From sequence record NC_054637.1: 46,833 bases of DNA; one strand, written 5' to 3'. Position numbers and translations under genes: made by a program. Numbering within the stretch: the first letter of the stretch is position 1; every line of letters starts with the position of its first letter. The notes under the pieces are model-generated. The model worked only from the letters and a program-made list of their open reading frames with translations, had not been told where the DNA came from and ran no database searches. This stretch comes from Escherichia phage vB_EcoS Sa179lw. This document shows, piece after piece, positions 1 through 46,833 of this stretch.

Positions 1-127
1 ATTAACAACGCAGGCTTAAAGGTAAAAAAATGATTATCCAGTTAAACGACATCATGAAAGCAGACATTATTCAGCTTGAAGATTATGACATGCAGCTGGC
101 GTTTGAAATTGAAACCGTTGAGCGGCA
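1..127. repeat. Terminal duplication: bases 1-127 are identical to 46707-46833 (circular closure or assembly overlap); genome unit 46706 bp
   Basis: Direct comparison of the two window ends. Confidence 0.9.
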
Positions 128-2575: not shown

Positions 2576-3646
2576 ATGGAAAAGATTATTTTTACCAAAG
2601 ATTTGGTGGCCAACTCCGCAGTGGTGGCTGACCAGTGGAAACATCTCACCATCGACCGTAAAGTGTTCTGCAACGCAGAAGCTGAGCTGGCGAAAACTTA
2701 CGGTGTTAACGCCACCGCACTGGTAACGAAAGATTACTGGCGCGACGTGGATAACGTCACCACCCGTGTTTTCCGCAACGAAGCTGGTCAGGACATGATG
2801 GCTGACCTGATGGGTATCGCGGCAAACATCAACATCGGTAAGACTGTGGCAATCAGCCGTATTGCTTCCGATGCTGGTAAGGTAGTCCGCACTCTGTCTG
2901 GTCAGGAGCCGGAAGATTTGGATAAAACCCGCTACGATTACACTGGCGATGTGATTCCAATCTTCAAGACTGGCTACAGCCGCGAATGGCGTGAGCTGCT
3001 GGGTATGCAGTCTGAAGGCTTCGACCCGCTGCTGGACGATCAGGCCAACGTTACCTTTAACCTGCGTTCCGACATGGCGCAATATCTGCTGACTGGCGAC
3101 CAGACTCTGAACGTGAATGGCGTTTACACTGGCTACGGCATCACCAACCACCCGAACACTGTTCAGGTTAACCTGAACGTTTCCGGTGGCCTGAATATCG
3201 ACCTGCAAACCGCAACGCCAGACGAAATCGTGAAATTCTTCAATCAGGATTTCCAGGCTATTCTGGATGCGCAGAACGTATTCGAGCAGGTTACCTTGTG
3301 GGTTTCTCCAGCAGTGCGTCGCAGCTTCATGCGCCCGTATTCTGATGCAGCTGGCTTCAAAGGCGGCACGGTTGAGCAGTACATCACTCAGTTCGGTAAT
3401 GGTCGCATTGGCAAGATTGGCACCAACTTCCTGCTGACTGGTAACCATTTCGTTGGCTACGTTCGCAACGACATGTACATCCGTCCGCGTGTTGCTCAGC
3501 CGGTTTCCACCTATGCGGCAGCTCGCGATAACCCGCACGATAACTTCAACTTCCTTGTGTGGTCAGCTTTTGGGCTTCAGGTGCGCAAGGATTTCACTGG
3601 CAAGTCCAAAGTGTTCAACGGATACGGTACGCAAACTCCGCTGTAA
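2576..3646 (+). CDS. Major capsid protein, 356 aa
   Basis: Size, position after scaffold/decoration genes, strong terminator immediately downstream. Confidence 0.7.
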   Translation: MEKIIFTKDLVANSAVVADQWKHLTIDRKVFCNAEAELAKTYGVNATALVTKDYWRDVDNVTTRVFRNEAGQDMMADLMGIAANINIGKTVAISRIASDAGKVVRTLSGQEPEDLDKTRYDYTGDVIPIFKTGYSREWRELLGMQSEGFDPLLDDQANVTFNLRSDMAQYLLTGDQTLNVNGVYTGYGITNHPNTVQVNLNVSGGLNIDLQTATPDEIVKFFNQDFQAILDAQNVFEQVTLWVSPAVRRSFMRPYSDAAGFKGGTVEQYITQFGNGRIGKIGTNFLLTGNHFVGYVRNDMYIRPRVAQPVSTYAAARDNPHDNFNFLVWSAFGLQVRKDFTGKSKVFNGYGTQTPL

Positions 3647-3927: not shown

Positions 3928-4776
3928 ATGGCTGTAAGATACGACATATTCACCACGCGGGAAGATGGTGAGGTGATGCTTGATGAACTGATGTCTGCTG
4001 ACTGGGCGGCGCTACAGGTTAACGTAATGCCGCTTGATTCATCTGGCGAATACACTCCACTTGTCAGCGGCACCGTGTCCGTTAAGGTATCACCATTTGA
4101 ATCAGGTGACTACTGGATTGATGTTAACAATAATAATTATTATGGCATGGCGCTACGCCTGAAGATAATCAAAAACCAGCTGCCAGTAGCGGTTAGTTCA
4201 CTGCGTGTTTCTGTGTGGCGCGCAGGAGTGTCGCCGCAATCGGTAGTTAACGTGTCGCCAGAAGTGAATGTGAGCAATGTCACTTCACAGTCATATTCTG
4301 AGCGAGCTAATAAGCAGGGTAAACTGTTCACTGCATCACGCAGAGTGACGGATGTCGCTGGTAGTTCAAACCTTGACAGCATATTCATCACCGGAACGAA
4401 GCAGGTAATATTCAACCAGCGCATTATTGGCTACACAGGAAAGGGCGTTGTTGCATCAATCTATCGTGGCGCGGTGGCTACTGGCGGAACTGCTGCGGAG
4501 ATTAATAACCCTAACGATATAACTCCGCAGGCAGCCACGGCGCAGCTACTTACTGGCGCTACGGTAACAAGCGTCGGGCAGCTAACGGTCGCGGCAACGT
4601 ACAGCGAGGGTAATGCTTCAAATCAGGGACAGGGGAACTCGCAGGCGCGGCTTGGTGAGCAAATCATCATGGCACCAAACACGACATATTTGCTTCGCAT
4701 AACATCACTGGATACGGCGGCGCAGAATATCAATGCGTATGTTTCGTGGTTTGAGGATGATACTTATCTGGCGTGA
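3928..4776 (+). CDS. Hypothetical protein, 282 aa, possibly virion-associated
   Basis: ATG at 3928; V/S/T/N/G-rich, Cys-free translation; flanked by terminators. Confidence 0.55.
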   Translation: MAVRYDIFTTREDGEVMLDELMSADWAALQVNVMPLDSSGEYTPLVSGTVSVKVSPFESGDYWIDVNNNNYYGMALRLKIIKNQLPVAVSSLRVSVWRAGVSPQSVVNVSPEVNVSNVTSQSYSERANKQGKLFTASRRVTDVAGSSNLDSIFITGTKQVIFNQRIIGYTGKGVVASIYRGAVATGGTAAEINNPNDITPQAATAQLLTGATVTSVGQLTVAATYSEGNASNQGQGNSQARLGEQIIMAPNTTYLLRITSLDTAAQNINAYVSWFEDDTYLA

Positions 4777-4782
4777 TAAAAG

Positions 4783-4807
4783 AAAAGCCCCGTAAAGGGG
4801 CTTTTGA
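4783..4807. terminator. Bidirectional terminator between convergent genes
   Basis: Hairpin AAAGCCCCGTAAAGGGGCTTT. Confidence 0.7.
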
Positions 4808-4810
4808 TTG

Positions 4811-5347
4811 CTATAGTCGCATCGGCATAACAACAATCTTCGCAGTCTCACCAGATGGCGCACTAAGACAGCAAACTGCGGCATTTGTATTTCCATTCAA
4901 TTCAAACTTAACTCCACATAATTTAGGGTTAAATAGCTTCGCAGCTTTCTCGACATCAACAAGATAGCCAGCATTGAAGCCAATTTCCTCTGTTGGCGAG
5001 GTCTGCTTCGGAATGATGCGGTCAATATCCGGGAATCGTCCGCCAATCTCTTCGCAGATACCAGTGCCAACCATCACACCAGCTTCATCATGATACGTTG
5101 CAATTTTCGCTTTGGTATCAATGATGGCGTACTCATAGCGTTTTGTCGGTGACTTGCCAATCTTGATAATCAAATTTTCAGCCAGCTCATTGTCATGGGT
5201 GCCGCCAATAAATGCACGATGACCGTCAGTTGATGCAATGCGACCATCAGGCATAAAGCAGATGCCGTTCAGGTAGTAACGCACATCATTGCGCGCCTGA
5301 AATATTAATGCTGATTCAAGTAATAATTTGCTGATTTTTAGTTTCAT
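4811..5347 (-). CDS. Truncated DNA polymerase III beta sliding-clamp homolog, about 178 aa
   Basis: Translation contains NDVRYYLNGICF, STDGHRAF, GRFPDIDRIIPK, EIGFNAGYLVDV and C-terminal VVMPMRL, matching E. coli DnaN motifs QDVRYYLNGMLF, TDGHRLAV, GRFPDYRRVLPK, EIGFNVSYVLDV, VVMPMRL (recalled from memory). Confidence 0.8.
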   Translation of the reverse strand: MKLKISKLLLESALIFQARNDVRYYLNGICFMPDGRIASTDGHRAFIGGTHDNELAENLIIKIGKSPTKRYEYAIIDTKAKIATYHDEAGVMVGTGICEEIGGRFPDIDRIIPKQTSPTEEIGFNAGYLVDVEKAAKLFNPKLCGVKFELNGNTNAAVCCLSAPSGETAKIVVMPMRL

Positions 5348-5520
5348 CACTTCACCTTAATCATATGCTGTTTTACAACCTTCAGGCATTCTTCAAAAAT
5401 GCCTCCCTTCTTTGCGCTCTGGTTGCGCTTGTAATACTGAATTGCCGCATCAATTGCCCTCTGGTCAATGTCAGGCAGCTTGGCGCGGAGTTGTTTTTCG
5501 ATGAATTTTTCAGGGGTCAT
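5347..5520 (-). CDS. Hypothetical protein, 57 aa
   Basis: TGATG stop/start coupling at both ends; not in ORF track because under 60 aa. Confidence 0.4.
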   Translation of the reverse strand: MTPEKFIEKQLRAKLPDIDQRAIDAAIQYYKRNQSAKKGGIFEECLKVVKQHMIKVK

Positions 5521-5741
5521 CACATCTCCTCCGCGCCACTCATGAACTCAATGAATTCCTTAGTGCATGACAGACAAAGCCACTTGCATTCCTGAATATT
5601 AATTCCTCCGCAGCCCTGACCAATACTGCCTTTGTAGGAGACGGTAAGTTCTCCGCACTCACCATTGATGTACTCATCGGGATTTTTGGTCTCATATCCG
5701 CACCTGTCACATTTGTGGATTGTTATAGTTATTTTTGCCAT
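5520..5741 (-). CDS. Small Cys-rich zinc-ribbon-like protein, 73 aa
   Basis: Motifs CDRCG, CGGINIQEC, CLSC; TGATG coupling. Confidence 0.5.
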   Translation of the reverse strand: MAKITITIHKCDRCGYETKNPDEYINGECGELTVSYKGSIGQGCGGINIQECKWLCLSCTKEFIEFMSGAEEM

Positions 5742-5944
5742 CACATCTTCTCCATCTTCTCAAATTTCTTTAGGCATTGTTTGCATATTGCATCAGGCTT
5801 CCATGCCGATATGTCTTCTCTTCCTCCGCCAAACATCCATTTCCCACATTCACTGATAATTTTCCCATCGCGGAAATAGTGAACTTTCTTAGCCAGTAGC
5901 GGGTCGCCCCATCCTGCAATTAACTTGTCATCACGCTCATTCAT
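5741..5944 (-). CDS. Hypothetical protein, 67 aa
   Basis: ORF track; coupled to the ParB-like gene; contains CKQC. Confidence 0.45.
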   Translation of the reverse strand: MNERDDKLIAGWGDPLLAKKVHYFRDGKIISECGKWMFGGGREDISAWKPDAICKQCLKKFEKMEKM

Positions 5945-6753
5945 CACATCTTCTCCAGAATTGCCATAACCTCGTGAATATCGGCAACAGGAATCTGAAT
6001 GAATTCCTCATCCTCTGCCACTACATGACCAGCAGGAAGAATTACGTGGTCTGCTGGTTTTAGTAACTCAATCAGGCGGTCAACTGGCTTAACCTTTTTC
6101 GACTTAAGCACCTTTGCCGTGACTTTATCTTTGCCTTGCGCTTTGGCTTCTTCGACCGCTTCGTTGATAACTTTAACCGCATCGTCACCATGCTCACGCG
6201 TTACCGCAACGGCGTTTGCATAGCTGATTTGCCCGGCATTGATTCGCGCTTTTACTTCTGCTGGCACATCACCAAGCGACAGGTGCATCTGCACGTCAGA
6301 CACTGAACGGCCTACCTTCTTGGCAATTTCTTCATTCGTCCAGCCAAAGCCTTTCAGTCGTGTGTAAGCCTTTGCGCGCTCAAACGGGTCGAGCTGCTTG
6401 CCCTGACTTGATGACACCATGAACGCGATTTTATCCGCCTCATCGCCAGTAAAGTCCTTGCACTCAATGCGAACGATTGGTGCGCCACGCTCAATGGCTC
6501 GAAGTGCGCCGAGATAGCGATGCTGACCATCAAGAATGCGGATTCCTTTATCGTCAGGAATAACTGTTAATGCTGGTAATGGCTGACCTGATTCCCAGCA
6601 CTGCGCGAAATATTCCACATGTTGCTCATCTGCTTCACGGATGTTGTATCCCGGCTCCAGATAGATTTGCTCCACTGGCACGAGATAGGTTTTGTTAACA
6701 GCGATGCCGTTTCGCGTTTCTTTGTCTGAATAGATTTTGCTTAGTGTTTTCAT
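5944..6753 (-). CDS. ParB N-terminal-like nuclease domain protein, about 269 aa
   Basis: Motif ILDGQHRYLGA typical of the ParB/sulfiredoxin fold; ATG at 6753 after RBS GGTGAGTGAG. Confidence 0.7.
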   Translation of the reverse strand: MKTLSKIYSDKETRNGIAVNKTYLVPVEQIYLEPGYNIREADEQHVEYFAQCWESGQPLPALTVIPDDKGIRILDGQHRYLGALRAIERGAPIVRIECKDFTGDEADKIAFMVSSSQGKQLDPFERAKAYTRLKGFGWTNEEIAKKVGRSVSDVQMHLSLGDVPAEVKARINAGQISYANAVAVTREHGDDAVKVINEAVEEAKAQGKDKVTAKVLKSKKVKPVDRLIELLKPADHVILPAGHVVAEDEEFIQIPVADIHEVMAILEKM

Positions 6754-6754
6754 C

Positions 6755-6946
6755 TCACTCACCACTTTCTTCTAATAAAAGTTCATAGTTTGCAATGTAT
6801 GCATTAGCCAGATGATATATTTGCTCTGCTGCGCAACGCTCTGGCGAGCTAAAGTCATCAATAGAACCAGCATTGCTGAGTGCATCAACACAATTTCGGA
6901 AATCATCCATAGTATTGCGGAACATACAGTAGTACATGTTTGCCAT
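6755..6946 (-). CDS. Hypothetical protein, 63 aa
   Basis: ORF track. Confidence 0.45.
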   Translation of the reverse strand: MANMYYCMFRNTMDDFRNCVDALSNAGSIDDFSSPERCAAEQIYHLANAYIANYELLLEESGE

Positions 6947-6948
6947 GA

Positions 6949-7209
6949 TTACTCCTCATCACCCTGAAAAATGCCACCAAACTCTTCAACGAGTTCATCA
7001 ATACACTGGTCCGCCTCAGCGCAATTACCAGCGGCACTAAGCAGAATATCAACAGCCTCATCATCAGGAATGTTGATTGCTGAGAAGAACTCAACAATGC
7101 ACATTTTCACAACCTGATATTCACCTTCTGTCTGGCAAGAAGCAAAACTGCAAGCGACTGCATCAATCAGCTTGGCTTTGTCGTCACTTGGGTTATCAAT
7201 ATCAAACAT
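6949..7209 (-). CDS. Highly acidic small protein, 86 aa from MFDIDNPSDDK; first gene of an early leftward operon
   Basis: About 21 D/E versus 3 K/R; RBS AGAGGTGA then ATG at 7209; downstream of promoter at 7245-7280. Confidence 0.55.
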   Translation of the reverse strand: MFDIDNPSDDKAKLIDAVACSFASCQTEGEYQVVKMCIVEFFSAINIPDDEAVDILLSAAGNCAEADQCIDELVEEFGGIFQGDEE

Positions 7210-7244
7210 TTCATCACCTCTAACATTTATTGTTGTTTCTACGT

Positions 7245-7280
7245 CACTAACTATAAACGCCACTTCAATCTACGTCAACA
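7245..7280 (-). promoter_or_regulatory. Sigma70-like early promoter: TTGACG, 17-bp spacer, TATAGT (minus strand)
   Basis: -35 at 7273-7278 and -10 at 7250-7255 read on the minus strand; contains the recurring ATCTACGTCA motif. Confidence 0.6.
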
Positions 7281-7325: not shown

Positions 7326-7445
7326 ATGGGTTCAACAAACGGTCCGTCTCGTTCACGCGCCACTGGCAATACTAAAACTGGCGGCAAAACTGGCGCAGTG
7401 AAGCCAAACGGCTCTACCCGCTCACCATCACGCGGTAAGAAATAA
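7326..7445 (+). CDS. Small basic protein, 39 aa
   Basis: RBS ACAGGAG then ATG 7326; TAATG coupling to the next gene. Confidence 0.4.
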   Translation: MGSTNGPSRSRATGNTKTGGKTGAVKPNGSTRSPSRGKK

Positions 7446-9686: not shown

Positions 9687-9712
9687 AGCCGCACGAAGCG
9701 GCCTTATTACTG
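9687..9712 (+). terminator. Candidate terminator
   Basis: Hairpin GCCGCACGAAGCGGC followed by a weak T tract. Confidence 0.4.
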
Positions 9713-9736
9713 GTTTAAGCATTGCCAGCGTGCTTT

Positions 9737-9801
9737 CTTAACATCCAGCCCCGTACCCATACATACCCCTACATATGATTGCGATAATGCTGGATGTTAA
9801 G
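9737..9801. repeat. Perfect 13-bp inverted repeat (CTTAACATCCAGC / GCTGGATGTTAAG) separated by 39 bp
   Basis: Read directly; lies in a 540-bp non-coding gap. Confidence 0.85.
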
Positions 9802-10174
9802 TGTTGTGGCTCTGGTGCCTCCAGATTGCTGGTCGGTAAATCCAGCAGGCAATCGCAAAACCAAATGGAGTGTATCTTTACCTTGCCGCGTGCGCATAGC
9901 CGCATTACCACAACGGAAAGAGCACTGAGACAAACGTCTTTGTCGCCTGCGCAAAGGGTTCGAGTTCCACTGATATGCGCCAATGCCCTCACCTGTTGTG
10001 CGCCCATTATTAATCACACCGGGCCAGTGCGCCGAATTTGTTTACAAGGAATCGGAAGACCTTGCTGATTTACAGGTTATTACGCCGCCATCAGAACAAC
10101 ATCATCGTTTGCATTTATCTTTGTGGTCAGTTTCTAAAAACCCGCAAAGTCGCTCACGAAAACTATCTGAAATA

Positions 10175-10222
10175 CAATCTACACCACAAAATAATACCTG
10201 TCAACACCTGTGATATAATCAC
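10175..10222 (+). promoter_or_regulatory. Candidate late promoter for the major tail gene: AATCTACACCAC ... TGTCAACACC ... TGATATAAT (extended -10)
   Basis: Extended -10 TGA+TATAAT at 10211-10219; poor -35; same architecture as 12184-12234. Confidence 0.5.
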
Positions 10223-10975: not shown

Positions 10976-11008
10976 AGAAAAAGCCCCGAAAGGGGCTTTG
11001 TTTATTCT
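10976..11008. terminator. Bidirectional terminator
   Basis: Hairpin AAAGCCCCGAAAGGGGCTTT followed by GTTTATT. Confidence 0.7.
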
Positions 11009-11199
11009 TGTGGAGGTCCCGGTAGCGGCATCCAGTGGTCGAAGGTGGTCTGTGCTAATTCATCATATTCGTTGTACCAGTCACTCCATGACTCCCCATC
11101 CCAACAAAAAACATTTTTCTGCACTACCTCATTCACGCATACCAAAACAGCGACGTTCGTAGGAGGCATCATCTCACTACACTTAATCCACTGGCTCAT
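11002..11199 (-). CDS. DUF551-like small protein, 65 aa
   Basis: W-rich translation ending DHWMPLPGPP, as recalled for DUF551 phage proteins. Confidence 0.55.
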   Translation of the reverse strand: MSQWIKCSEMMPPTNVAVLVCVNEVVQKNVFCWDGESWSDWYNEYDELAQTTFDHWMPLPGPPQE

Positions 11200-11486
11200 A
11201 ATCCTTCCTCATTCATCTTCAGGAAAACAATCATGGCGGCGCGTAGTGGGTTTCTGTCTTCAGTGGTGAACTTTGAAGCCACGCCAAATGCCGTTGGCCA
11301 AGCCTGTGGGATGGTGTATTGATATGGCACGACTGCGATATGGTTTTCAACAATAATAGGCCATGCATCAGCTGGGTTGCTGCAGTAGTCTTTTGCCTTA
11401 AATGAATTCAATCCTGAAATTTGCATAATCTCTGCGTGCACACGGCAGTTAATTTCAAAATCACTCATCTCTTCATAATTTTTCAT
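11196..11486 (-). CDS. Hypothetical protein, 96 aa
   Basis: ORF track; overlapping start/stop. Confidence 0.45.
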   Translation of the reverse strand: MKNYEEMSDFEINCRVHAEIMQISGLNSFKAKDYCSNPADAWPIIVENHIAVVPYQYTIPQAWPTAFGVASKFTTEDRNPLRAAMIVFLKMNEEGL

Positions 11487-11626
11487 ATCACCTTATCCTC
11501 ATCAAAAATCACACCAATCACACGAAGCAAGTCTTTCGCCATGCGCTCAGCCTCTTCGTAATCGTAACCTGCATCAACATACAGCTCTGTGTAGAAAATC
11601 AGGTCTGATTTTGTTTGTTCGTTCAT
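11483..11626 (-). CDS. Hypothetical acidic protein, 47 aa
   Basis: Manual translation MNEQTKSDLIFYTELYVDAGYDYEEAERMAKDLL...; coupled to neighbours. Confidence 0.3.
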   Translation of the reverse strand: MNEQTKSDLIFYTELYVDAGYDYEEAERMAKDLLRVIGVIFDEDKVI

Positions 11627-11829
11627 TTCTTGTCGCCACTGTTAACTAATGCCCAAACAAGTGCTGCAACCCAACCAATAAAGCTCCATCCGACAAGAAT
11701 ATTCAGCACACAGATTGCGGTAGTATTTGTATGCTTTCTTTGCAATGCCACAAATGATGGGAGAAGATAAGCAAATATCACCAATCCAGCGAAAAACAAC
11801 AAAATAACAACGTCCATAGCTAACCTCAA
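11623..11829 (-). CDS. Small membrane protein, 68 aa, two hydrophobic segments
   Basis: Translation VVILLFFAGLVIFAYLL and ILVGWSFIGWVAALVWALV. Confidence 0.5.
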   Translation of the reverse strand: MRLAMDVVILLFFAGLVIFAYLLPSFVALQRKHTNTTAICVLNILVGWSFIGWVAALVWALVNSGDKK

Positions 11830-11849
11830 CTGTTAATAACTTGTTTATA

Positions 11850-12143
11850 TTACATGCCATTCTTTTCGCACAAAGCAACAGATACATCACGCAATTGCTC
11901 TTTGGTCATATCATTGCGTGCATAAACCATTTCTACGATAGCAAGGCCGATTATTTCTGCTGATTCGTTGTTTTTTGTGGAACCCTTAACTACCACCTCG
12001 GCAAGATTCTTGCTGATACCGTTATCTCGAGCATCGGCAGTGTTCATGGCGACTTCTCCGATGCTTTTACAAACCTCAGAGGTTGCACTCACCGCAAAGG
12101 AGGAAGCAAACAGCACTGATGCAATCAACATTTTAATTTTCAT
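11850..12143 (-). CDS. Secreted or periplasmic protein with N-terminal signal peptide, 97 aa
   Basis: MKIKMLIASVLFASSFAVSA signal-like N-terminus; RBS GAGGTGAG. Confidence 0.55.
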   Translation of the reverse strand: MKIKMLIASVLFASSFAVSATSEVCKSIGEVAMNTADARDNGISKNLAEVVVKGSTKNNESAEIIGLAIVEMVYARNDMTKEQLRDVSVALCEKNGM

Positions 12144-12183
12144 AACTCACCTCATTTATTCATCACTCGTTTCGATGACTTTA

Positions 12184-12234
12184 ATCTACATCACCACCTC
12201 ACAGGTGTCAACACCACCGAGATGATATAATCAA
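12184..12234 (+). promoter_or_regulatory. Candidate late promoter for the tail assembly / tape measure operon; same architecture as 10175-10222
   Basis: AATCTACATCACC ... TGTCAACACC ... TGATATAAT at 12223-12231. Confidence 0.5.
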
Positions 12235-22449: not shown

Positions 22450-22905
22450 TTAAAAACCATCAAATATCAATGGCTCTGATGGTTTTTTATATTTTGGGTA
22501 ATTCATTGCTCTCCAGTCGTTAAATGCCATCATTGCAGCTTCCCAACCAAGGCATACACACGCGAAGGAACCTAATTCTTTTGCCGCCTTTAGGTATGCC
22601 ATTTGACCGGGCTGCCATTTTGATAAAGTATGATCCATTCTTTTCATCTCCATAACGAATGATTGCTTTCCGCTAATAATGATGTCTGACGCCCCGAAGT
22701 TTAGCGCGCCTTTTTTCTTCAGGTTTTCAACTTCATACCCTTTACGCTTTCCTTCATTTGGTACATGAATCATAACTCTTGCAAAGTCAGGGTATAGCTT
22801 CCTTATCTGATTAACAAAAGTCTCCAGTTCAGCGTCTTCTGACGGGCACTTTTTGTTTCTGTAATCTAAATTTCCATATACCTTAACGCCTTCTGGAAAA
22901 ATCAT
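22450..22905 (-). CDS. VRR-NUC domain nuclease, about 151 aa
   Basis: Motifs PNEGKRKG ... GASDIIISGKQSFVMEMKR; ATG at 22905 overlaps the helicase stop (ATGA). Confidence 0.7.
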   Translation of the reverse strand: MIFPEGVKVYGNLDYRNKKCPSEDAELETFVNQIRKLYPDFARVMIHVPNEGKRKGYEVENLKKKGALNFGASDIIISGKQSFVMEMKRMDHTLSKWQPGQMAYLKAAKELGSFACVCLGWEAAMMAFNDWRAMNYPKYKKPSEPLIFDGF

Positions 22906-24767
22906 AATACCCCCCAATACATGCCTTTAACGTTGAAATATTTACTACCCTTATCTCTTCTGAACATAATCACTGATGGCGCGACAGCCTCATCTCTTTT
23001 AGATATTGCATCATCAATTGACATGTTATGTTCACCAAAGCACTTCTCACAAAATTCTTCCCACTCCTTCTTCATCCATTCCTTCTCAGAGTTTGGATTG
23101 TAGAACTTGCTAACAAAAAATGGTTTCTGTTCAATAGCAAATTTTACGTGCACCAAATCTTCACCGCTTGAAACGTAATGCTTCATGATGTTCATCATGG
23201 TTACGCTTGATTGCTTGGTTGCATAAGGAGAAGAATCAAGCCTGTCAGCTTCTTCCTTTAGCTTTTGGTTGGGGTCAATAATTTCAGCTCCGCATGATGT
23301 GCAATTTCTTGCTGCTATATCATTTTCAAACCCACAATCGGGACACTCCTTTACCGACCATTTATAAGTACACCTATGCATTTCCCTTAGTGGTCCATGC
23401 ATAACGTAGTTTTTACACCGCCTACCAAAATGAGCAGGCATAGGCTTGCTCCCAATCTTTTCACCTGACTTATCAAAAATATCAATCATTACTCTGTCAC
23501 CCGCCAAATCCAGCCAGTAACCTTCCTTGTCAACTTCAAGATTTTCAGGATTTGGGCGCACACCAAATTCATTAATAAAGCCACAAAGAGGGCACTTGAC
23601 ATCCATTGGCACGGATGGTTTTTTCCTTGTTGCTTTTATTTCTGGAGTGAATAAGTCCCCAGTCTCAGAAAAGTGGCGCTGAATGTTGCCTGCGTAATCG
23701 CTGACAAGAAAATCTTCCTTGCCTTCATAAAGGCGCGTCCCTCTGCCAATTATTTGCTGGTAGAGCCTTGGTGATTCTGTGGCTCTCATTACTGCTATAT
23801 GATCACAATGAGGAACATCCACCCCTACAGTAAGGATATTCTGGTTAACGATGTATTTAACTTTTTGTGCCTTGAAGTCTGATATTGCCTTATTGCGTTC
23901 CGTTGTCGGCATGTCACCAAAAACATAACTATAAGAACCGGGAGGAAGTGACTCCATTATCTCCATAGCGTGCTTCTTGGTGCTGGCAAAAATCATCGTT
24001 CCGCGCCGATTAACAGAGCGACGGATAATATCTTCAACAATACGTGATGTTTTCCTTCCTTTGCCAACCATCGCCTTTTCAACTGAAGCTGTCGTGTACC
24101 GACCTAACTTATCCTTTTCAAGACAAGACGTATCATACTCGTCAAAAACAGGCTCTGTTACTGGAGGAGTAAGGTATCCGTTTTCGATGAGAAATTTAGC
24201 TTCAAGCTCATAAACGACTTTGTCGTAATATGGGTCTATGGCTGTTTCTTCATCTGTAGGACCGTCGAGGTAATGCTCTTTGTAGATGTATCCAGTTCCA
24301 AGGCGGTAAGGCGTAGCGGTCATTCCAATAACGCGCAGTTTTGGATTGCGACGCTTCATCTCATTAATAATAAATTTAATGGTTGGCGTTATTCCATCAC
24401 ATTCATCAATAATGACAGCACCATACTTATCACCAAACATCTCTATTGAGTTCTTGATTGTAACTGGTGAACCAAACACCACAGGATGACGCAGGTTTTT
24501 GGGACCAGCTTTTGCACTGAACATGCTGGCTGGTTCTCCTGTAAGAAGATATTTAGCGCGATTTTGTGTGACGAGTTCCGCCGTGGGAGCAATGCACAAA
24601 ACTCGCTTTTTGCTGATACCATAAATACGAGATGCAAGCTCTGCTACAACCATAGATTTTCCTGCACCTGTCGGGAGGATGATAACGCATGATGAGATAG
24701 TGCTGCGAATGTGTGCCATAGCCGCGTCAACTGCTTCCTGTTGGTATGGCCTTAGCGTGTATTTCAT
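22902..24767 (-). CDS. Superfamily 2 (DEAD/DEAH-like) helicase with C-terminal Cys-rich zinc-ribbon region, 621 aa
   Basis: Walker A PTGAGKS, motif II DECD, motif III-like TATP; CPLCGF and CPDCGF...CTSCG near the C-terminus. Confidence 0.8.
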   Translation of the reverse strand: MKYTLRPYQQEAVDAAMAHIRSTISSCVIILPTGAGKSMVVAELASRIYGISKKRVLCIAPTAELVTQNRAKYLLTGEPASMFSAKAGPKNLRHPVVFGSPVTIKNSIEMFGDKYGAVIIDECDGITPTIKFIINEMKRRNPKLRVIGMTATPYRLGTGYIYKEHYLDGPTDEETAIDPYYDKVVYELEAKFLIENGYLTPPVTEPVFDEYDTSCLEKDKLGRYTTASVEKAMVGKGRKTSRIVEDIIRRSVNRRGTMIFASTKKHAMEIMESLPPGSYSYVFGDMPTTERNKAISDFKAQKVKYIVNQNILTVGVDVPHCDHIAVMRATESPRLYQQIIGRGTRLYEGKEDFLVSDYAGNIQRHFSETGDLFTPEIKATRKKPSVPMDVKCPLCGFINEFGVRPNPENLEVDKEGYWLDLAGDRVMIDIFDKSGEKIGSKPMPAHFGRRCKNYVMHGPLREMHRCTYKWSVKECPDCGFENDIAARNCTSCGAEIIDPNQKLKEEADRLDSSPYATKQSSVTMMNIMKHYVSSGEDLVHVKFAIEQKPFFVSKFYNPNSEKEWMKKEWEEFCEKCFGEHNMSIDDAISKRDEAVAPSVIMFRRDKGSKYFNVKGMYWGVL

Positions 24768-24777
24768 AAATCAAATC

Positions 24778-24966
24778 CTAATATAAATCGCAATGATTTA
24801 GATCTAAAATATCATCATCTATCTCAGTAACCTGAGACTCATTGAATAATGGAATACCATCTGGACTTCTAAAGCTTGATTTTTCACCTTTTATTACTGT
24901 AAAACCAAATTCTCTCCACGCGGAAAAACTCATGAACTTTTCATGTTTTTCTTTATTTTCTTTCAT
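24778..24966 (-). CDS. Hypothetical protein, 62 aa
   Basis: ATG at 24966 preceded by TTCGAGAGGACATT; lies downstream of a terminator. Confidence 0.4.
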   Translation of the reverse strand: MKENKEKHEKFMSFSAWREFGFTVIKGEKSSFRSPDGIPLFNESQVTEIDDDILDLNHCDLY

Positions 24967-24984
24967 AATGTCCTCTCGAATAAA

Positions 24985-25012
24985 AAGGGCCACGAATGGC
25001 CCTGATTCAAAT
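24985..25012 (-). terminator. Rho-independent terminator or attenuator after the SSB-like gene
   Basis: Minus-strand hairpin GGGCCATTCGTGGCCC followed by TTTTTATT. Confidence 0.6.
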
Positions 25013-25017
25013 CTAAA

Positions 25018-25539
25018 TTAAAACGGAACGTCGTCATCAAAGTCCATCGGTGGTTCATTAGATGACGCTGATTGCTTAGGAGCAGGTGTTGCTTTTGTTT
25101 GTTGACGACTAAAAACACCAGCCACATAGTTACCAGTTTTTTGCTTATCCTCAGACTCCCAAACTCGCAGAAGAAGAATCATTGGGCGATTTGCAAGCGC
25201 ACTTGCAATAGCCAAATCAGTAGGCTCTTTTCCTGACGCCATCAGCTTACCTCCAGCATTTGCATCAATTGCTGCAAGCATAGTGATAGCATTATCCCGC
25301 TGTTTCTCTTTTGAGCTAAACACCTTCAGCTTCTGGAAGATGATTCGATTTTTATACTCACCTTCAAGGATTCGCCACTTAAGATTGAAGAATCGCTCAC
25401 CTTCCCACTGATCATCTTTACATTCCTCAACAGCAGCCAGAACACGGCTGCCATCAGGAATTACCTCAAAACCACCACCCAATTCAAATTCAGATTTAGA
25501 TTCAACAGCTTTACCGTCAGAAAGATTCCAGAAACCCAT
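25018..25539 (-). CDS. ssb: SSB-like single-stranded DNA-binding protein with E. coli-type C-terminal acidic tip, 173 aa
   Basis: C-terminus SSNEPPMDFDDDVPF; ATG at 25539 preceded by AATCGAGAGGACAC; N-terminal domain not obviously a canonical OB fold by eye. Confidence 0.6.
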   Translation of the reverse strand: MGFWNLSDGKAVESKSEFELGGGFEVIPDGSRVLAAVEECKDDQWEGERFFNLKWRILEGEYKNRIIFQKLKVFSSKEKQRDNAITMLAAIDANAGGKLMASGKEPTDLAIASALANRPMILLLRVWESEDKQKTGNYVAGVFSRQQTKATPAPKQSASSNEPPMDFDDDVPF

Positions 25540-25556
25540 TTTTGTGTCCTCTCGAT

Positions 25557-26036
25557 TTATTTGATGATCAGTTTTGGTTTGCCGTCGGTGATGGCACAAC
25601 CCTTAATTTCAATCCCGGCTTTTATCGCATTTTTAATTGCTGCATTATCTGCCGACACTTTCACAACTCGGTACTGCTCAGGAAGCTGCTCAACAGGAAC
25701 AAACACATCAAGAACTGGTGACGGCTTGCCAAGAGTGATACTGAACAACTTACCTTTGATATTTGTCTTTCCTGACGCCATCATGTTCTGACGAAGATAA
25801 TCTTTAAGGTTATCAATCTTCGCAACTAAAACACGCTTACGTTCAGAAAGGCGATCAATCTCTGACTTAAGTCCAGCTTCATCAGCTTCAAGCTCACGAA
25901 TGTAAGCAGCAACCATTTCTGCTTTTCCTTCAAACTCCTCTTCAATAAGATTGATGGTATCTTCAATCTGCTCCCGTGGAATATCCTCCATCGCCAGCAG
26001 TTCATTAAGCTGTTTGGTTATCTCATAGAGATGCAT
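25557..26036 (-). CDS. Siphovirus Gp157-like protein, about 159 aa
   Basis: Sequence pattern and position next to the Sak4-like ATPase and SSB; start (ATG 26036 or GTG 26051) uncertain. Confidence 0.55.
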   Translation of the reverse strand: MHLYEITKQLNELLAMEDIPREQIEDTINLIEEEFEGKAEMVAAYIRELEADEAGLKSEIDRLSERKRVLVAKIDNLKDYLRQNMMASGKTNIKGKLFSITLGKPSPVLDVFVPVEQLPEQYRVVKVSADNAAIKNAIKAGIEIKGCAITDGKPKLIIK

Positions 26037-26847
26037 AATATTTAATCTCACTCAAAAGCGGGTTCTCACCCTTTTCAAAAGGAATTTCAGGCTCAAGGTT
26101 GTATCTGTTTTTTGCATTAACATATCCAACTCTACCATCGCCAGAGGTAATAAGAACTCGCTGACCAGTCTGAACAACCTTTCCAAACTTGGTCACCTGC
26201 CCTTTCTTATCAGTCTCAGTTCCTTTCACGAACTCCTCATTCCTGATGTAAATAACAGCATCGCTAAGATTCACATAGCCAGAAACAGAAGCATCATGCA
26301 TATCAAGTGTGTAAACAGTGTATTCATCAGCATCAGGGCGATTTTTCATCTTTTTAACACCTGCGTGTGCAAGATAAATAATGCTCATTCCTTTTTCTTT
26401 GCGAAGATACTTACATGCATTTATTATTTCAGCGTGCATTTCAGAAACAACAATATATCCTTTGTTGTAACCACCGGCCGCAGAACCTACGTTGTCAACA
26501 CCGTAATTTTCACAAACCTCATGCTCAAACATTGAATGTAGGCTTGTGATTGAGTCAATTACAAGCGTTTTGTAATTATGTTCCTCAGTAATTAATGCGC
26601 GTAGCTGTGACAGCAAATCATCCTTTGTGCTTGTTTTGCGTTTAGCATCAGCTCGCTTCAGTACAGGAAATGAATCAGGTTTCTTCTCATCATCCCAATC
26701 ATCAAAAACACCAGTTATTTCTTCTGCCTGAATGAATACCGGATTTGGGAACAAAGCAGCAAGCGTTGTCTTGCCGACACCAGGTGTTCCAACCAATGTT
26801 ATGATTGGTGCTGCTGGTTTTGGTTTTTGAATCATTGATAAGCTCAT
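26023..26847 (-). CDS. Sak4-like RecA-fold ATPase (AAA_24-type), 274 aa
   Basis: Walker A GTPGVGKTT; size; neighbours Gp157-like and SSB-like. Confidence 0.65.
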   Translation of the reverse strand: MSLSMIQKPKPAAPIITLVGTPGVGKTTLAALFPNPVFIQAEEITGVFDDWDDEKKPDSFPVLKRADAKRKTSTKDDLLSQLRALITEEHNYKTLVIDSITSLHSMFEHEVCENYGVDNVGSAAGGYNKGYIVVSEMHAEIINACKYLRKEKGMSIIYLAHAGVKKMKNRPDADEYTVYTLDMHDASVSGYVNLSDAVIYIRNEEFVKGTETDKKGQVTKFGKVVQTGQRVLITSGDGRVGYVNAKNRYNLEPEIPFEKGENPLLSEIKYYASL

Positions 26848-26981
26848 AGTGTCCTCTCGATTTAACTCAGCATTTCGCTGGTGTGAATTAAAGATACGTC
26901 AATGCGATGGTAAACGCAACACCTTGACGAAAATTTTTTTTGAGTTCATTATTGCTACATACAGATAGTAGAGGTAATCAC

Positions 26982-27224
26982 ATGAAAAGTATTGCAGAAC
27001 AAATAAGGGAAATGGAACAGAAAAAGCTGTCAGAGCTGATTAATTATGTTGGCGGACAGTCTCAACTGGCAAGGTTCCTTGGCGTATCAAAACAGGCGGT
27101 CAATCAATGGGTATCAAGAGGAAGAATTAGTGCTACAGAGGCTATTCATGCTGAAATGCTAACTGGTGGTGCTTTCAGGAAAGAAGATTTAAGGCCAGCC
27201 GTTACAAAGTGGATAGTGAAATGA
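26982..27224 (+). CDS. Cro/YdaS-like HTH DNA-binding protein, about 80 aa
   Basis: HTH segment QSQLARFLGVSKQAVNQWVSRG; encoded opposite to the surrounding operon; own terminator. Confidence 0.6.
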   Translation: MKSIAEQIREMEQKKLSELINYVGGQSQLARFLGVSKQAVNQWVSRGRISATEAIHAEMLTGGAFRKEDLRPAVTKWIVK

Positions 27225-27225
27225 T

Positions 27226-27256
27226 AAAGCCCGCGATTGCGGGCTTTTTTTTTAAA
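27226..27256 (+). terminator. Rho-independent terminator after the HTH gene
   Basis: Hairpin AAAGCCCGCGATTGCGGGCTTT followed by TTTTTTTT. Confidence 0.7.
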
Positions 27257-46739: not shown

Positions 46740-46833
46740 TTATCCAGTTAAACGACATCATGAAAGCAGACATTATTCAGCTTGAAGATTATGACATGCA
46801 GCTGGCGTTTGAAATTGAAACCGTTGAGCGGCA
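46707..46833. repeat. Second copy of the 127-bp terminal duplication
   Basis: Identical to bases 1-127. Confidence 0.9.

What the first reader, a model, noticed from the sequence alone, without database searches (positions are those of the whole stretch)
4811..7280. Minus-strand early operon embedded between capsid and neck genes
A sigma70-like promoter (TTGACG, 17 bp, TATAGT) at 7245-7280 drives seven tightly coupled minus-strand genes: acidic 86-aa protein, 63-aa protein, ParB-like nuclease domain protein, two small Cys-rich proteins, a 57-aa protein and the clamp fragment. The block is closed by a bidirectional terminator at 4783-4807. Three consecutive junctions share the sequence GGAG(A/G)AGATGTGATG, so three adjacent genes all end in E-(E/K)-M-stop overlapping the next ATG. 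Gene content and early promoter suggest a host-takeover or anti-defence cassette rather than morphogenesis genes.
Basis: partly seen in the sequence, partly recalled or inferred. Interest (0 to 1): 0.6.

Follow-up and report, generated by a model that had tools for sequence, protein, structure and literature searches.

The report
Antisense ParB / mini-clamp operon in phage
A real, self-contained seven-gene operon runs backwards between the head and neck genes of this phage; it has a conserved core (a ParB-like DNA-binding protein, a 57-aa protein and a cut-down copy of the host DNA sliding clamp) and slots where small accessory genes are swapped, a layout already present, though unstudied, in about 190 sequenced relatives.

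Summary
Seven translationally coupled minus-strand genes (4811-7209) lie between a TTGACG-17-TATAGT promoter (7278-7250) and a bidirectional hairpin terminator (4783-4805). The junction GGAGRAGATGTGATG occurs three times, and only here. The window is a complete 46.7-kb Skatevirus-like siphophage genome.

- **Conservation:** the block sits at this position across the lineage. The promoter hexamers and a 40-nt leader are near-invariant in 72 of 74 related loci.
- **Core and variable genes:** ParB-like protein, 57-aa protein and clamp-like protein form the core. Genes before ParB, after ParB and before the clamp gene are swapped freely; relatives carry DNA methyltransferases, HNH or wHTH genes there.
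- **The "clamp fragment":** it is a full-length member of a large phage family of about 180-aa "mini β-clamps". These keep the host clamp's client-binding pocket almost residue for residue but lack the ring-forming parts.
- **Likely role of the core:** in Serratia phage Eta the ParB/mini-clamp pair sits between SSB and helicase, and this phage has no DNA polymerase. The core therefore most likely serves DNA replication or host replisome capture.
- **What is not shown:** anti-defence is plausible only for the variable genes, and "early" timing is untested.
- **Repeated junction:** it is the ParB 3' tail, copied with each inserted gene.

The cassette itself is ordinary; the mini-clamp is moderately interesting.

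The parts
7250..7278 (-). sigma-70-type promoter: TTGACG (7278-7273), 17-nt spacer, TATAGT (7255-7250)
   Evidence: Best match in 2-10 kb. Both hexamers conserved in 72 of 74 related loci with a variable spacer, at 76-1256 nt from ParB depending on the genes in between. The match alone is not above chance.
7210..7249 (-). conserved 5' leader with a second GACGTAGA copy and the Shine-Dalgarno sequence (…GACGTAGAAACAACAATAAATGTTAGAGGTGATGAA-ATG)
   Evidence: GACGTAGA follows the -10 in 63 of 73 relatives, and the leader is nearly identical in the variants listed, whichever gene comes first. GACGTAGA occurs 6 times in the genome vs 0.6 expected, always at promoter-like sites.
6949..7209 (-). g1: acidic 86-aa protein (net -18, 5 Cys); variable-slot gene
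   Evidence: PHROG 14587, labelled 'anti-restriction'. No Pfam, NCBIfam or PDB sequence match. Only 17 clusters of homologues found. Present in 13 of 71 related loci. dN/dS 0.04.
6755..6946 (-). g2: 63-aa acidic protein; variable-slot gene
   Evidence: PHROG 8760, function unknown. Present in 16 of 71 loci. dN/dS 0.20.
5944..6753 (-). g3: orphan ParB-family protein (N-terminal ParB/Srx-like domain with DGQHR motif, ParB HTH domain, C-terminal region); core gene
   Evidence: Pfam HTH_ParB 2e-11 and KorB 3e-6. PHROG 1033 1e-90. Spo0J 1vz0 3e-13 over residues 40-203. 30% identical over its full length to the Serratia phage Eta ParB-like protein.
5741..5944 (-). g4: 67-aa protein ending EKMEKM; variable-slot gene
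   Evidence: PHROG 2358, function unknown. Present in 3 of 71 loci, including Sf11. Its 3' end repeats the ParB tail.
5520..5741 (-). g5: 73-aa protein with two CxxC pairs (zinc-ribbon-like); variable-slot gene
   Evidence: No family match. Present in 3 of 71 loci. Its 3' end differs from the other copies by a 7-nt insertion that recreates the ParB-tail junction.
5347..5520 (-). g6: basic 57-aa protein; core gene, normally directly upstream of the mini-clamp gene
   Evidence: PHROG 4439. Present in 70 of 71 loci. dN/dS 0.10.
4811..5347 (-). g7: 178-aa 'mini beta-clamp' (beta domain II plus the C-terminal half of domain III, with an intact client-binding pocket); core gene
   Evidence: PDB DnaN 4e-13, with identical C-terminus VVMPMRL. 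AF2 pLDDT 96.5. Foldseek top hits are E. coli beta clamp. Large family of 170-210-aa proteins. Pocket residues are the most conserved columns. Present in 56 of 71 loci.
4783..4805 (.). bidirectional intrinsic terminator hairpin shared with the converging + strand virion-protein gene (3928-4776)
5942..5956 (-). junction copy 1, GGAGAAGATGTGATG (the true ParB 3' tail: SD, stop codon and overlapping start)
   Evidence: The ParB tail CTGGAGAAG(A/C/T)TGTGATG is kept, with minor variants, in the ParB-to-next-gene junctions of close relatives whatever gene follows.
5739..5753 (-). junction copy 2, GGAGAAGATGTGATG (3' end of g4)
5518..5532 (-). junction copy 3, GGAGGAGATGTGATG (3' end of g5)

Best explanation
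The block is an autonomous operon read by host RNA polymerase from its own conserved promoter and leader. It ends at a hairpin terminator shared with the converging structural gene. It is a fixed feature of Skatevirus-like siphophages.

It has two layers. The first is a conserved core: an orphan ParB-family DNA-binding protein, a 57-aa basic protein and a 178-aa 'mini beta-clamp'. The mini-clamp is a shortened relative of the host sliding clamp. It keeps the pocket that host polymerases and repair proteins dock into, and has lost the parts that make a ring. This phage encodes a primase-helicase, helicase and recombination proteins but no DNA polymerase. The core most likely works in phage DNA replication or host replisome capture: the mini-clamp binds the clamp-binding motifs of host proteins (Pol III alpha/epsilon/delta, Hda, repair polymerases) and either recruits them to phage DNA or withholds them from the host. 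The ParB-like protein would be the DNA-bound partner or regulator.

The second layer is three exchange slots: after the leader, after ParB, and before the clamp gene. Small accessory genes are swapped in and out there, with the exchanged genes abutting stop/start junctions. In this genome the slots hold the acidic 86-aa, 63-aa, 67-aa and 73-aa proteins. In relatives they hold DNA methyltransferases, HNH endonucleases and small wHTH proteins.

The thrice-repeated junction is the 3' tail of ParB (Shine-Dalgarno, stop, overlapping start). It was duplicated each time a gene was inserted behind ParB, so it serves both as a translational-coupling signal and as a scar or substrate of recombination.

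Shown: operon anatomy, conservation, mosaicism, pocket conservation, and genomic association with replication genes. Inferred: binding of host clients, cooperation with ParB, and timing of expression.
For: **Anatomy:**

**Real genes:** dN/dS 0.04-0.20.

**Lineage-wide feature:** 193 GenBank phage records match the block. The promoter is conserved in 72 of 74 loci. GACGTAGA follows the -10 in 63 of 73 loci, in a leader that is nearly identical whichever gene comes first.

**Core versus variable genes:** of 71 complete loci, the 57-aa gene is in 70, the mini-clamp in 56, the 63-aa gene in 16, the acidic gene in 13, and the two Cys-rich genes in 3 each. Gene orders are listed. Variable genes include a C5-MTase (PF00145, 3.5e-22), an N6-MTase, an HNH and a wHTH.

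**Mini-clamp:**
- E. coli / Enterobacter DnaN E=4e-13. Residues 7-154 align to beta 136-289 and residues 119-178 to beta 314-366.
- AF2 pLDDT 96.5, pTM 0.90.
- Foldseek top 50 hits are all beta clamps, best TMq 0.68.
- In an 82-sequence family alignment with 26% mean identity, the most conserved columns are R152, Y154, L155, G157, T172, G174, H175, P242, N320, Y323, M362, P363 and R365 in beta numbering. Except Y154 and G157, these are subsite I/II pocket residues listed in PMC11139829.

**No DNA polymerase found:** Pfam on the ten largest ORFs of the 22-41 kb region gives Prim-Pol/PriCT_2/DUF3987, an SF2 helicase, AAA_24, Gp157 and DUF669, and no polymerase.

**Replication context elsewhere:**
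- Serratia Eta: SSB, ParB-like (30% identical), mini-clamp (58%), helicase (44% identical to this phage's helicase).
- L092: ParB directly upstream of the mini-clamp gene.
- Xanthomonas PhiXhv-5: helicase, mini-clamp, DNA polymerase.
- Skarpretter and Lumpael: primase, Dam, mini-clamp, one hypothetical gene, Dcm.

**Junction:** the ParB tail is kept (minor variants) whatever gene follows it. g4 ends EKMEKM, and g5 here carries a 7-nt insertion that recreates the tail.

**Not virion proteins in Sf11:**
Against: - No experiment on any member of the mini-clamp family or on this ParB was found.
- The mini-clamp is absent from 15 of 71 related cassettes, so it is dispensable for the lineage and cannot be an essential replication factor.
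- In most other phages examined it occurs without a ParB neighbour. Cooperation with ParB is therefore clade-specific at best.
- One pocket position differs: beta L177 is Ala here.
- Sponge and recruiter roles cannot be told apart from sequence.
- ParB Box II is DGQHRYLGA instead of GERRxRA, so CTP-switch behaviour is uncertain.
- No repeated parS-like site was found.
- The timing of expression is unknown.
Confidence: 0.55

Rival explanations
1. Anti-defence / anti-restriction cassette. The acidic protein acts as a DNA mimic, the small Cys-rich proteins inhibit defence systems, and the ParB-like protein supports DNA modification.
For: - PHROG 14587 carries the label 'anti-restriction protein'.
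- g1 has net charge -18 in 86 aa.
- The slots are hypervariable.
- Relatives place C5 and N6 DNA methyltransferases directly behind ParB with overlapping stop/start codons.
- ParB-fold proteins are often fused to, or work with, DNA-modifying enzymes in phages (10.1101/2025.10.10.680097; PMC13229309).
Against: - No Pfam, NCBIfam, PADLOC or PDB sequence match supports any of the four variable proteins.
- The origin of the PHROG label is unknown, and homologues of g1 carry no functional name.
- This genome has no methyltransferase in the cassette.
- The conserved core sits with replication genes in other phages.
Confidence: 0.25
2. The mini-clamp is a genuine DNA-encircling processivity factor. 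It would assemble into a ring of new stoichiometry (for example four copies of 1.5 domains giving six domain equivalents) for host Pol III or the phage Prim-Pol.
For: - The pocket is fully conserved.
- The gene lies between the helicase and DNA polymerase genes in Xanthomonas phage PhiXhv-5 and next to SSB and helicase in Eta.
- The arithmetic works: 3 beta-alpha-beta-beta-beta motifs times 4 equals the 12 motifs of known clamps.
Against: - It lacks domain I and the first half of domain III, which contains the I272/L273 dimer interface.
- The confident model has only two long helices, where a beta protomer contributes six to the channel.
- It is missing from 15 of 71 related cassettes.
- No multimer prediction could be run.
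Confidence: 0.12
3. The ParB-like protein is mainly a transcription regulator (like KorB, HerB or BisD) that times phage or host gene expression. The cassette would be a regulatory switch unit and the other genes passengers.
For: - It has HTH_ParB and KorB domain matches.
- Orphan ParB proteins on mobile elements act as regulators made immediately after entry (HerB/YfjB, PMC13370423).
- A conserved GACGTAGA element occurs at about 6 promoter-like sites and twice at this promoter, overlapping the predicted transcription start.
Against: - The repeated element is mostly just the -35 hexamer plus its extension.
- No palindromic operator was found.
- No binding data exist.
- This rival does not explain the conserved linkage to the mini-clamp.
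- It is not exclusive of the best explanation.
Confidence: 0.2
4. The genes serve head assembly or DNA packaging, which would explain why they sit in the structural module.
For: Mini-clamp genes lie inside head or tail modules in at least four other genera.
Against: - In those genera, as here, the gene is antisense to the structural genes.
- The same family lies in replication modules elsewhere.
- Cassette proteins are not among the Sf11 virion proteins.
Confidence: 0.04

Closest known systems
Bacterial beta sliding clamp (DnaN); from my own knowledge also beta*, the UV-induced domain II-III form of E. coli beta
   Same: There is significant sequence and fold homology to domains II-III. The motifs DVRYYLNG, TDGHR, GRFPD and VVMPMRL are shared. 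Pocket residues that could be aligned by sequence are identical or conservatively replaced; the V344 equivalent was not mapped.
   Different: It has about 1.5 domains instead of 3. Domain I is absent, as is the I272/L273 dimer interface, and one channel helix of domain II is lost in the model. It scores far below the curated cut-offs: TIGR00663 31 vs 137.65 bits, and Pfam beta_2/beta_3 below gathering score. It is encoded by phages and is often dispensable.
Orphan ParB-family proteins of mobile elements: KorB (RK2), HerB/YfjB (F leading region), Noc, BisD
   Same: It has an N-terminal ParB/Srx-like domain plus a ParB HTH. There is no ParA partner nearby. It is encoded on a mobile element in a unit with its own strong promoter. 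HerB is made immediately after DNA entry (PMC13370423).
   Different: The Box II arginine patch is degenerate: DGQHRYLGA vs GERRxRA. It scores below the TIGR00180 cut-off. The protein is much shorter than the HerB regions described in that paper. No binding site has been identified, and CTP binding is untested.
Phage morons and accessory-gene islands; conserved gene-boundary sequences of mosaic phages (from my own knowledge of lambdoid phage and mycobacteriophage comparative genomics)
   Same: It has its own promoter and terminator inside a late operon, in the opposite orientation. Content varies between close relatives, with the exchanged genes abutting stop/start junctions, and junction sequences are duplicated.
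   Different: It is not a dispensable add-on. The unit and its ParB gene are present in every relative examined, and the same conserved leader serves whichever gene comes first.
Phage ParB-like activators or partners of DNA-modifying enzymes (5mYOX-associated ParB; ParB-methyltransferase fusions)
   Same: In several relatives a C5 or N6 DNA methyltransferase is translationally coupled directly behind this ParB.
   Different: The 5mYOX-associated ParBs lack a DNA-binding domain (PMC13229309), whereas this protein has one. This genome has no modifying enzyme in the cassette.

Membership tests
Sigma-70 promoter | -35 and -10 hexamers close to TTGACA/TATAAT with a 16-18-nt spacer | tested here: met
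   TTGACG-17-TATAGT, 10/12 matches; the best site in 2-10 kb.
Sigma-70 promoter | The match is rarer than expected by chance | tested here: not met
   9 sites vs 12.0 +/- 3.2 expected in the region. 11 vs 10.6 +/- 3.2 genome-wide at >=10/12.
Sigma-70 promoter | Hexamers conserved among relatives while the spacer drifts, at a fixed position before the first gene | tested here: met
   72 of 74 close loci keep both hexamers. GACGTAGA follows the -10 in 63 of 73 loci, in a near-identical leader.
Sigma-70 promoter | Mapped transcription start, and early timing | not testable with these tools
   No transcript data were found for this phage group.
Intrinsic (Rho-independent) terminator | GC-rich hairpin followed by a U-tract | tested here: met
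   9-bp stem with 5 GC pairs, followed by CUUUUAU on the minus strand. Folding z-scores -3.8 (minus) and -3.4 (plus).
ParB/Spo0J/KorB family | ParB-type HTH DNA-binding domain | tested here: met
   PF17762 at 44.4 bits, above the 22.6 cut-off; PF08535 KorB at 27.5 bits, above 22.3.
ParB/Spo0J/KorB family | N-terminal ParB/Srx (CTPase-fold) domain | tested here: inconclusive
   Residues 40-100 align to the Spo0J 1vz0 N-terminal domain. PF02195 was not reported, and TIGR00180 scored 40.2 bits, below its 58.45 cut-off.
ParB/Spo0J/KorB family | Box II arginine patch GERRxRA (nucleotide binding and hydrolysis) | tested here: not met
   The aligned segment reads DGQHRYLGA; one Arg is kept and the catalytic Glu is replaced by Gln.
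ParB/Spo0J/KorB family | Cognate ParA and repeated parS centromere sites | tested here: not met
   No ParA is annotated in the cassette or in 24 kb of Sf11. None appeared among the ten large ORFs scanned. No recurrent palindrome was found, and the one 18-bp palindrome is not conserved. Small ORFs outside the cassette were not scanned.
Beta sliding clamp (DnaN) | Three-domain protomer forming a head-to-tail dimer ring | tested here: not met
   178 aa aligning only to beta 136-302 and 314-366. Domain I and the I272/L273 interface are absent. TIGR00663 scored 31 bits, below its 137.65 cut-off.
Beta sliding clamp (DnaN) | Clamp-binding-motif pocket (subsites I and II) | tested here: met
   R23, L26, T40, G42, H43, R44, P106, R110, I111, V172, M174, N125, Y128, P175, M176 and R177 correspond to beta R152, L155, T172, G174, H175, R176, P242, R246, V247, V360, M362, N320, Y323, P363, M364 and R365. 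Only L177 to A45 is not conservative; the V344 equivalent was not mapped. Many of these positions are among the most conserved columns of the family. This is sequence-level evidence only; binding was not tested.
Anti-restriction DNA mimics (ArdA, Ocr, KlcA and similar) | Sequence or profile membership in a characterised anti-restriction family | tested here: not met
   Only the PHROG 14587 label. No Pfam, NCBIfam or PDB sequence match.
Anti-restriction DNA mimics (ArdA, Ocr, KlcA and similar) | Strongly acidic surface | tested here: met
   21 Asp+Glu vs 3 Lys+Arg in 86 aa; pI 4.05. This is composition only; no structure was predicted.
Anti-restriction DNA mimics (ArdA, Ocr, KlcA and similar) | Protects the phage from restriction | not testable with these tools
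   Indirect evidence against: Bas77 carries a 99% identical protein, and its group is reported as markedly RM-sensitive.
Moron / accessory island | Own promoter and terminator inside a late operon, with presence varying between relatives | tested here: inconclusive
   The promoter, terminator and variable slots meet the criterion. But the unit and its ParB gene are present in all relatives examined, which were themselves retrieved with the ParB protein.

The most novel reading that the evidence does not exclude
The ParB-like protein and the mini beta-clamp could together form a surrogate, loader-independent sliding clamp. The ParB-family protein (a fold known to make nucleotide-gated DNA-sliding clamps) would supply the DNA-encircling part. 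The mini-clamp, perhaps bridged by the 57-aa protein, would supply an exact copy of the host clamp's docking pocket. Host Pol III, or other clamp clients, would then be tethered to phage DNA without the host beta clamp or clamp loader. A weaker version of this reading is that the mini-clamp is a monomeric pocket decoy that traps the clamp-loader delta subunit or repair and RecBCD-type clients.
Probability: 0.1. Interest if true: 0.8.

Novelty: new member of a known kind. Interest (0 to 1): 0.4.

Why it matters
The cassette itself is an ordinary, already sequenced feature of a common group of Salmonella, Escherichia, Shigella and Klebsiella siphophages.

Three points go beyond routine annotation.

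1. A large, uncharacterised phage family of about 180-aa proteins preserves the host beta-clamp's client-docking pocket while discarding the ring. These proteins are mislabelled in RefSeq as 'RusA-like Holliday junction resolvase'. The pattern points to a simple, testable way for polymerase-less phages to capture or starve the host replisome. The same pocket is an antibiotic target.

2. The cassette is a clean natural example of gene exchange, with the swapped genes abutting stop/start junctions behind a fixed promoter and leader. It also gives an explanation of how junction sequences get duplicated.

3. The variable slots are a short list of candidate host-interaction genes for phages used in biocontrol and therapy.

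Tried and rejected
- **First AF2 run:** a shallow alignment of 29 sequences at 70-95% identity gave pLDDT 56 and was discarded. A second run with 82 diverse family members gave pLDDT 96.5.
- **Promoter statistics:** counts are not above chance, so the argument was moved to conservation.
- **ParB binding site:** I searched for repeated palindromes or recurrent 12-mers. Only two isolated perfect palindromes turned up; the one checked, an 18-mer inside the capsid gene, is present in only 7 of the 85 fetched loci. Rejected.
- **Phage-encoded clamp-binding motifs:** a scan of 85 predicted proteins for Q-phi-x-[LM]-(x)-[FL] gave 3 hits, by my rough estimate no more than chance. One lies inside the ParB HTH helix. 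Not informative.
- **QLRAKL in the 57-aa protein as a clamp-binding motif:** the Gln is not conserved in the family. Rejected.
- **PADLOC scan of all seven proteins:** no hits.
- **Context sampling from IMG/VR:** three divergent mini-clamp queries returned 0, 1 and 3 loci, too few. GenBank records were used instead.
- **Literature:** searches for phage mini-clamps, clamp decoys, or transcript data for this phage group found nothing directly relevant.
- **Junction as a universal cassette boundary (attC-like):** rejected. Most inserted genes in relatives end with other sequences.

Full report
**What the window is.** The first 127 bases equal the last 127, so the window is a closed assembly of a 46,706-bp phage genome. 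It is about 90% identical over most of its length to Shigella phage Sf11 (Cedarrivervirus), Escherichia phages C1 and Bas79, and Salmonella phage 64795_sal3 (Saltrevirus). The BASEL authors treat this group as the Skatevirus cluster of small O-antigen-dependent siphoviruses (10.1101/2024.09.12.612763).

**Checking the observation.**
- Seven minus-strand ORFs run from 7209 to 4811, with gaps of +2, +1, -1, -1, -1, -1 nt.
- TTGACG-17-TATAGT lies at 7278..7250. A 9-bp GC-rich hairpin at 4805..4783 folds well on both strands.
- GGAGRAGATGTGATG occurs exactly three times, at the three consecutive junctions ParB/g4, g4/g5 and g5/g6. There is no other exact copy in the genome. Allowing two mismatches, 0.22 matches are expected and 0 of 100 shuffles reach the observed four.
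- All seven ORFs show purifying selection among relatives (median dN/dS 0.04-0.20).

The promoter match by itself is not significant. Sites of this quality occur at the chance rate: 9 vs 12.0 +/- 3.2 in the region, and 11 vs 10.6 +/- 3.2 genome-wide at >=10/12. What makes it credible is comparative. In 72 of 74 related loci both hexamers are unchanged while the middle of the spacer varies. The promoter always sits just upstream of whichever gene comes first, so its distance from ParB ranges from 76 to 1256 nt. The leader that follows, GACGTAGAAACAACAATAAATGTTAGAGGTGATG, is also nearly invariant.

**The cassette in relatives.** I collected 79 IMG/VR loci with the ParB protein, plus three GenBank loci, and compared gene content. 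Among 71 loci that cover the whole unit:
- the 57-aa gene is present in 70;
- the clamp-like gene in 56;
- the 63-aa gene in 16;
- the acidic gene in 13;
- each of the two Cys-rich genes in 3.

No other locus combines both Cys-rich genes. Three positions are exchange slots: between the leader and ParB, between ParB and the 57-aa gene (the gap ranges from 3 nt to about 1.45 kb), and between the 57-aa gene and the clamp-like gene. Alternative occupants include a C5 cytosine methyltransferase (PF00145, 3.5e-22), an N6/N4 methyltransferase, an HNH endonuclease, small winged-helix proteins and many unknowns. Nearly all junctions are 1-nt or 4-nt stop/start overlaps. The unit is therefore a fixed expression platform with a conserved core and swappable passengers.

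**The repeated junction.** The ParB gene ends CTGGAGAAG(A/C/T)TGTGATG in relatives whatever gene follows. The sequence is thus ParB's own tail, and it also supplies a GGAG Shine-Dalgarno sequence 8 nt before an ATG that shares one base with the TGA stop. The 67-aa gene ends GAGAAGATG-GAGAAGATG-TGATG (EKMEKM), a tandem copy of that tail. The 73-aa gene ends differently in other phages (…GENNER, overlapping the next gene by 11 nt). In this genome it carries a 7-nt insertion that recreates GGAGGAGATGTGATG. Other working junctions in the same operon have different sequences. Identity of 15/15 and 14/15 bases is therefore better explained by duplication of the ParB tail during insertion or unequal recombination than by convergent selection. 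It is not a general cassette boundary: most inserted genes in relatives end otherwise.

**The ParB-like protein.**
- Family matches: Pfam HTH_ParB (2e-11) and KorB (3e-6), both above their cut-offs. PHROG 1033 at 1e-90. Spo0J 1vz0 at 3e-13 across residues 40-203, which includes the N-terminal domain.
- Departures from canonical ParB: the segment aligned to the nucleotide-binding Box II GERRYRAAL reads DGQHRYLGAL. TIGR00180 is below its cut-off. No ParA was seen, and no repeated palindrome.
- Conclusion: it is an orphan ParB-family protein. Recent work shows such orphans on mobile elements acting as host-reprogramming DNA binders made immediately after entry (HerB/YfjB, PMC13370423). Others act as activators or fusion partners of DNA-modifying enzymes in phages (PMC13229309; 10.1101/2025.10.10.680097). 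The methyltransferases placed directly behind this ParB in relatives fit the latter theme.

**The clamp-like protein.** This is the most informative gene.
- Sequence homology: it matches enterobacterial DnaN at 4e-13. Residues 7-154 align to beta 136-289, and residues 119-178 to beta 314-366, ending in the identical VVMPMRL. A family profile gives 9e-24 and 4e-8 for the two segments.
- Structure: with a diverse 82-sequence alignment, AlphaFold2 gives pLDDT 96.5 and pTM 0.90. Foldseek finds only beta clamps at the top of the PDB list, best TMq 0.68. In BFVD it finds many 180-210-aa phage proteins at TM 0.8-0.88.
- Family size: an exhaustive profile-free search finds 1543 cluster representatives at E<=1e-3 and 151 at E<=1e-10, nearly all 170-210 aa. 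Full-length DnaN appears only at about 1e-12. This is a large family of 'mini-clamps', not a broken gene.
- What is missing: domain I, the first half of domain III (which holds the I272/L273 dimer interface) and, in the model, the second channel helix of domain II.
- What is kept: in an alignment with 26% mean identity, the most conserved columns correspond to beta R152, Y154, L155, G157, T172, G174, H175, P242, N320, Y323, M362, P363 and R365. Except Y154 and G157, these are residues that the 2024 review lists as subsites I and II of the clamp-binding-motif pocket (PMC11139829). In the window's protein only L177 to Ala is non-conservative; the V344 equivalent was not mapped.
- Annotation error: the RefSeq/PHROG name 'RusA-like Holliday junction resolvase' is wrong.

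**Genomic context of the core.** Pfam on the ten largest ORFs of the 22-41 kb region finds a Prim-Pol/PriCT_2/DUF3987 primase-helicase, an SF2 helicase, an AAA_24 protein, Gp157 and DUF669, and no DNA polymerase. Elsewhere the mini-clamp gene appears in two kinds of place.
- In replication modules:
  - Serratia phage Eta has SSB, ParB-like (30% identical, 3e-24), mini-clamp (58% identical) and a helicase 44% identical to this phage's helicase.
  - Metagenomic locus L092 has ParB directly upstream of the mini-clamp gene.
  - Xanthomonas phage PhiXhv-5 has helicase, mini-clamp, DNA polymerase.
  - Skarpretter and Lumpael have primase, Dam, mini-clamp, one hypothetical gene, Dcm.
  - Vibrio phage R19R has it next to Dam and SSB.
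- As a single antisense gene inside a head or tail module: Dhillonvirus TheodorHerzl, Burkholderia Bcep781, Kagunavirus phage 26 and Proteus phage Isfahan.

The association with replication genes argues that the core is a DNA-replication or DNA-metabolism function. The repeated antisense embedding in late operons suggests a need for expression independent of late transcription. Because 15 of 71 cassettes lack the mini-clamp, it is an accessory rather than an essential factor.

**Most likely mechanism.**
- Shown: an autonomous operon; a ParB-family DNA binder; a pocket-preserving, ring-less clamp derivative; linkage to replication genes.
- Inferred: the mini-clamp binds the clamp-binding motifs of host proteins. 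It would then act either as an adaptor that brings Pol III or other clients to phage DNA, or as a sponge that withholds them from the host. From my own knowledge, the clamp-loader delta subunit binds monomeric beta more tightly than the ring. The ParB-like protein may be the DNA-bound partner or a regulator.
- Limits: I could not run multimer predictions or any binding test. No convincing clamp-binding motif is encoded by the phage itself, which weakly favours host clients.

**Anti-defence reading.** It remains reasonable for the passengers. The slots are hypervariable and hold methyltransferases in relatives. For the four passengers in this genome, however, there is no positive evidence beyond an acidic composition and an unexplained PHROG label. 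There are no Pfam, NCBIfam, PADLOC or PDB sequence matches. The BASEL phages of this group, including Bas77 with a 99% identical acidic protein, are described as markedly sensitive to restriction-modification systems and Old.

**Timing and virion content.** No transcript data were found. The genome has about eight similar promoter-like sites (TTGAC(G/A)tagat…TAGATT/TATAGT). Some are ahead of blocks that run into structural genes, so the promoter type does not by itself mean 'early'. Virion mass spectrometry of Sf11 detected the 30-kDa product of the gene that converges on the terminator (window 3928-4776) but none of the cassette proteins (PMC12724387).

**Verdict.** The cassette is a known-in-sequence, lineage-wide feature, here in a new gene combination. 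The point of interest is the mini beta-clamp with an intact client pocket, and its conserved pairing with a ParB-family protein in this clade.

Noticed in passing
window 1-127 and 46707-46833: The two ends are identical (127/127). The window is a closed circular assembly of a complete genome with a unique length of 46,706 bp.
   Followed up: yes
window 7278(-), 10204(-), 12211(-), 30793(+), 35798(-), 35837(+), 41583(-), 44686(+): About eight promoter-like sites share TTGAC(G/A)-tagat…-TAGATT/TATAGT. GACGTAGA or its complement occurs 6 times vs 0.6 expected, always at these sites. They may form one promoter class with a shared regulatory element.
   Followed up: partly
window about 9700-10204 and 11000-12211, minus strand: Two further antisense islands lie inside the tail module, each behind TTGACA-17-TAGATT. 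In Sf11 the first holds tRNA-Arg and tRNA-Ser and the second a DUF551 protein and a superinfection-exclusion gene. ARAGORN finds no tRNA anywhere in this window.
   Followed up: partly
window 7326-7445 (+): A 39-aa, very basic, Gly/Ser/Thr-rich ORF (MGSTNGPSRSRATGNTKTGGKTGAVKPNGSTRSPSRGKK) has an AGGAG ribosome-binding site, and its stop overlaps the next gene's ATG. It is the first gene of the plus-strand block that diverges from the cassette promoter. No good sigma-70 promoter was seen for that block.
   Followed up: no
window 4811-5347 and RefSeq relatives (e.g. NC_031918.1 BOX16_gp31): The RefSeq/PHROG 3007 product name 'RusA-like Holliday junction resolvase' is a propagated misannotation. 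The protein is homologous to beta-clamp domains II-III.
   Followed up: yes
L083 (TheodorHerzl), L084 (Bcep781), L093 (phage 26), L088 (Proteus Isfahan): In four unrelated genera the mini-clamp gene is a single gene placed antisense inside the head or tail gene module. This recurrent arrangement is unexplained.
   Followed up: partly
window 22450-29977 (-): The replication module has an SF2 helicase, DUF669, Gp157, AAA_24 and a Prim-Pol/PriCT_2/DUF3987 primase-helicase, but no DNA polymerase. The phage must use a host polymerase.
   Followed up: partly
window 3161-3178 and 1839-1854: There are perfect palindromes of 18 bp (GTTCAGGTTAACCTGAAC, inside the capsid gene) and 16 bp (GTTGACAGCTGTCAAC). 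The 18-mer is present in only 7 of the 85 fetched loci, so it is probably not a conserved protein-binding site.
   Followed up: yes
window 3928-4776 (+): This 282-aa gene converges on the cassette terminator. It corresponds to Sf11 gp68 (30 kDa), which was detected in virions by mass spectrometry but not placed in the cryo-EM map. It is absent from many relatives.
   Followed up: partly
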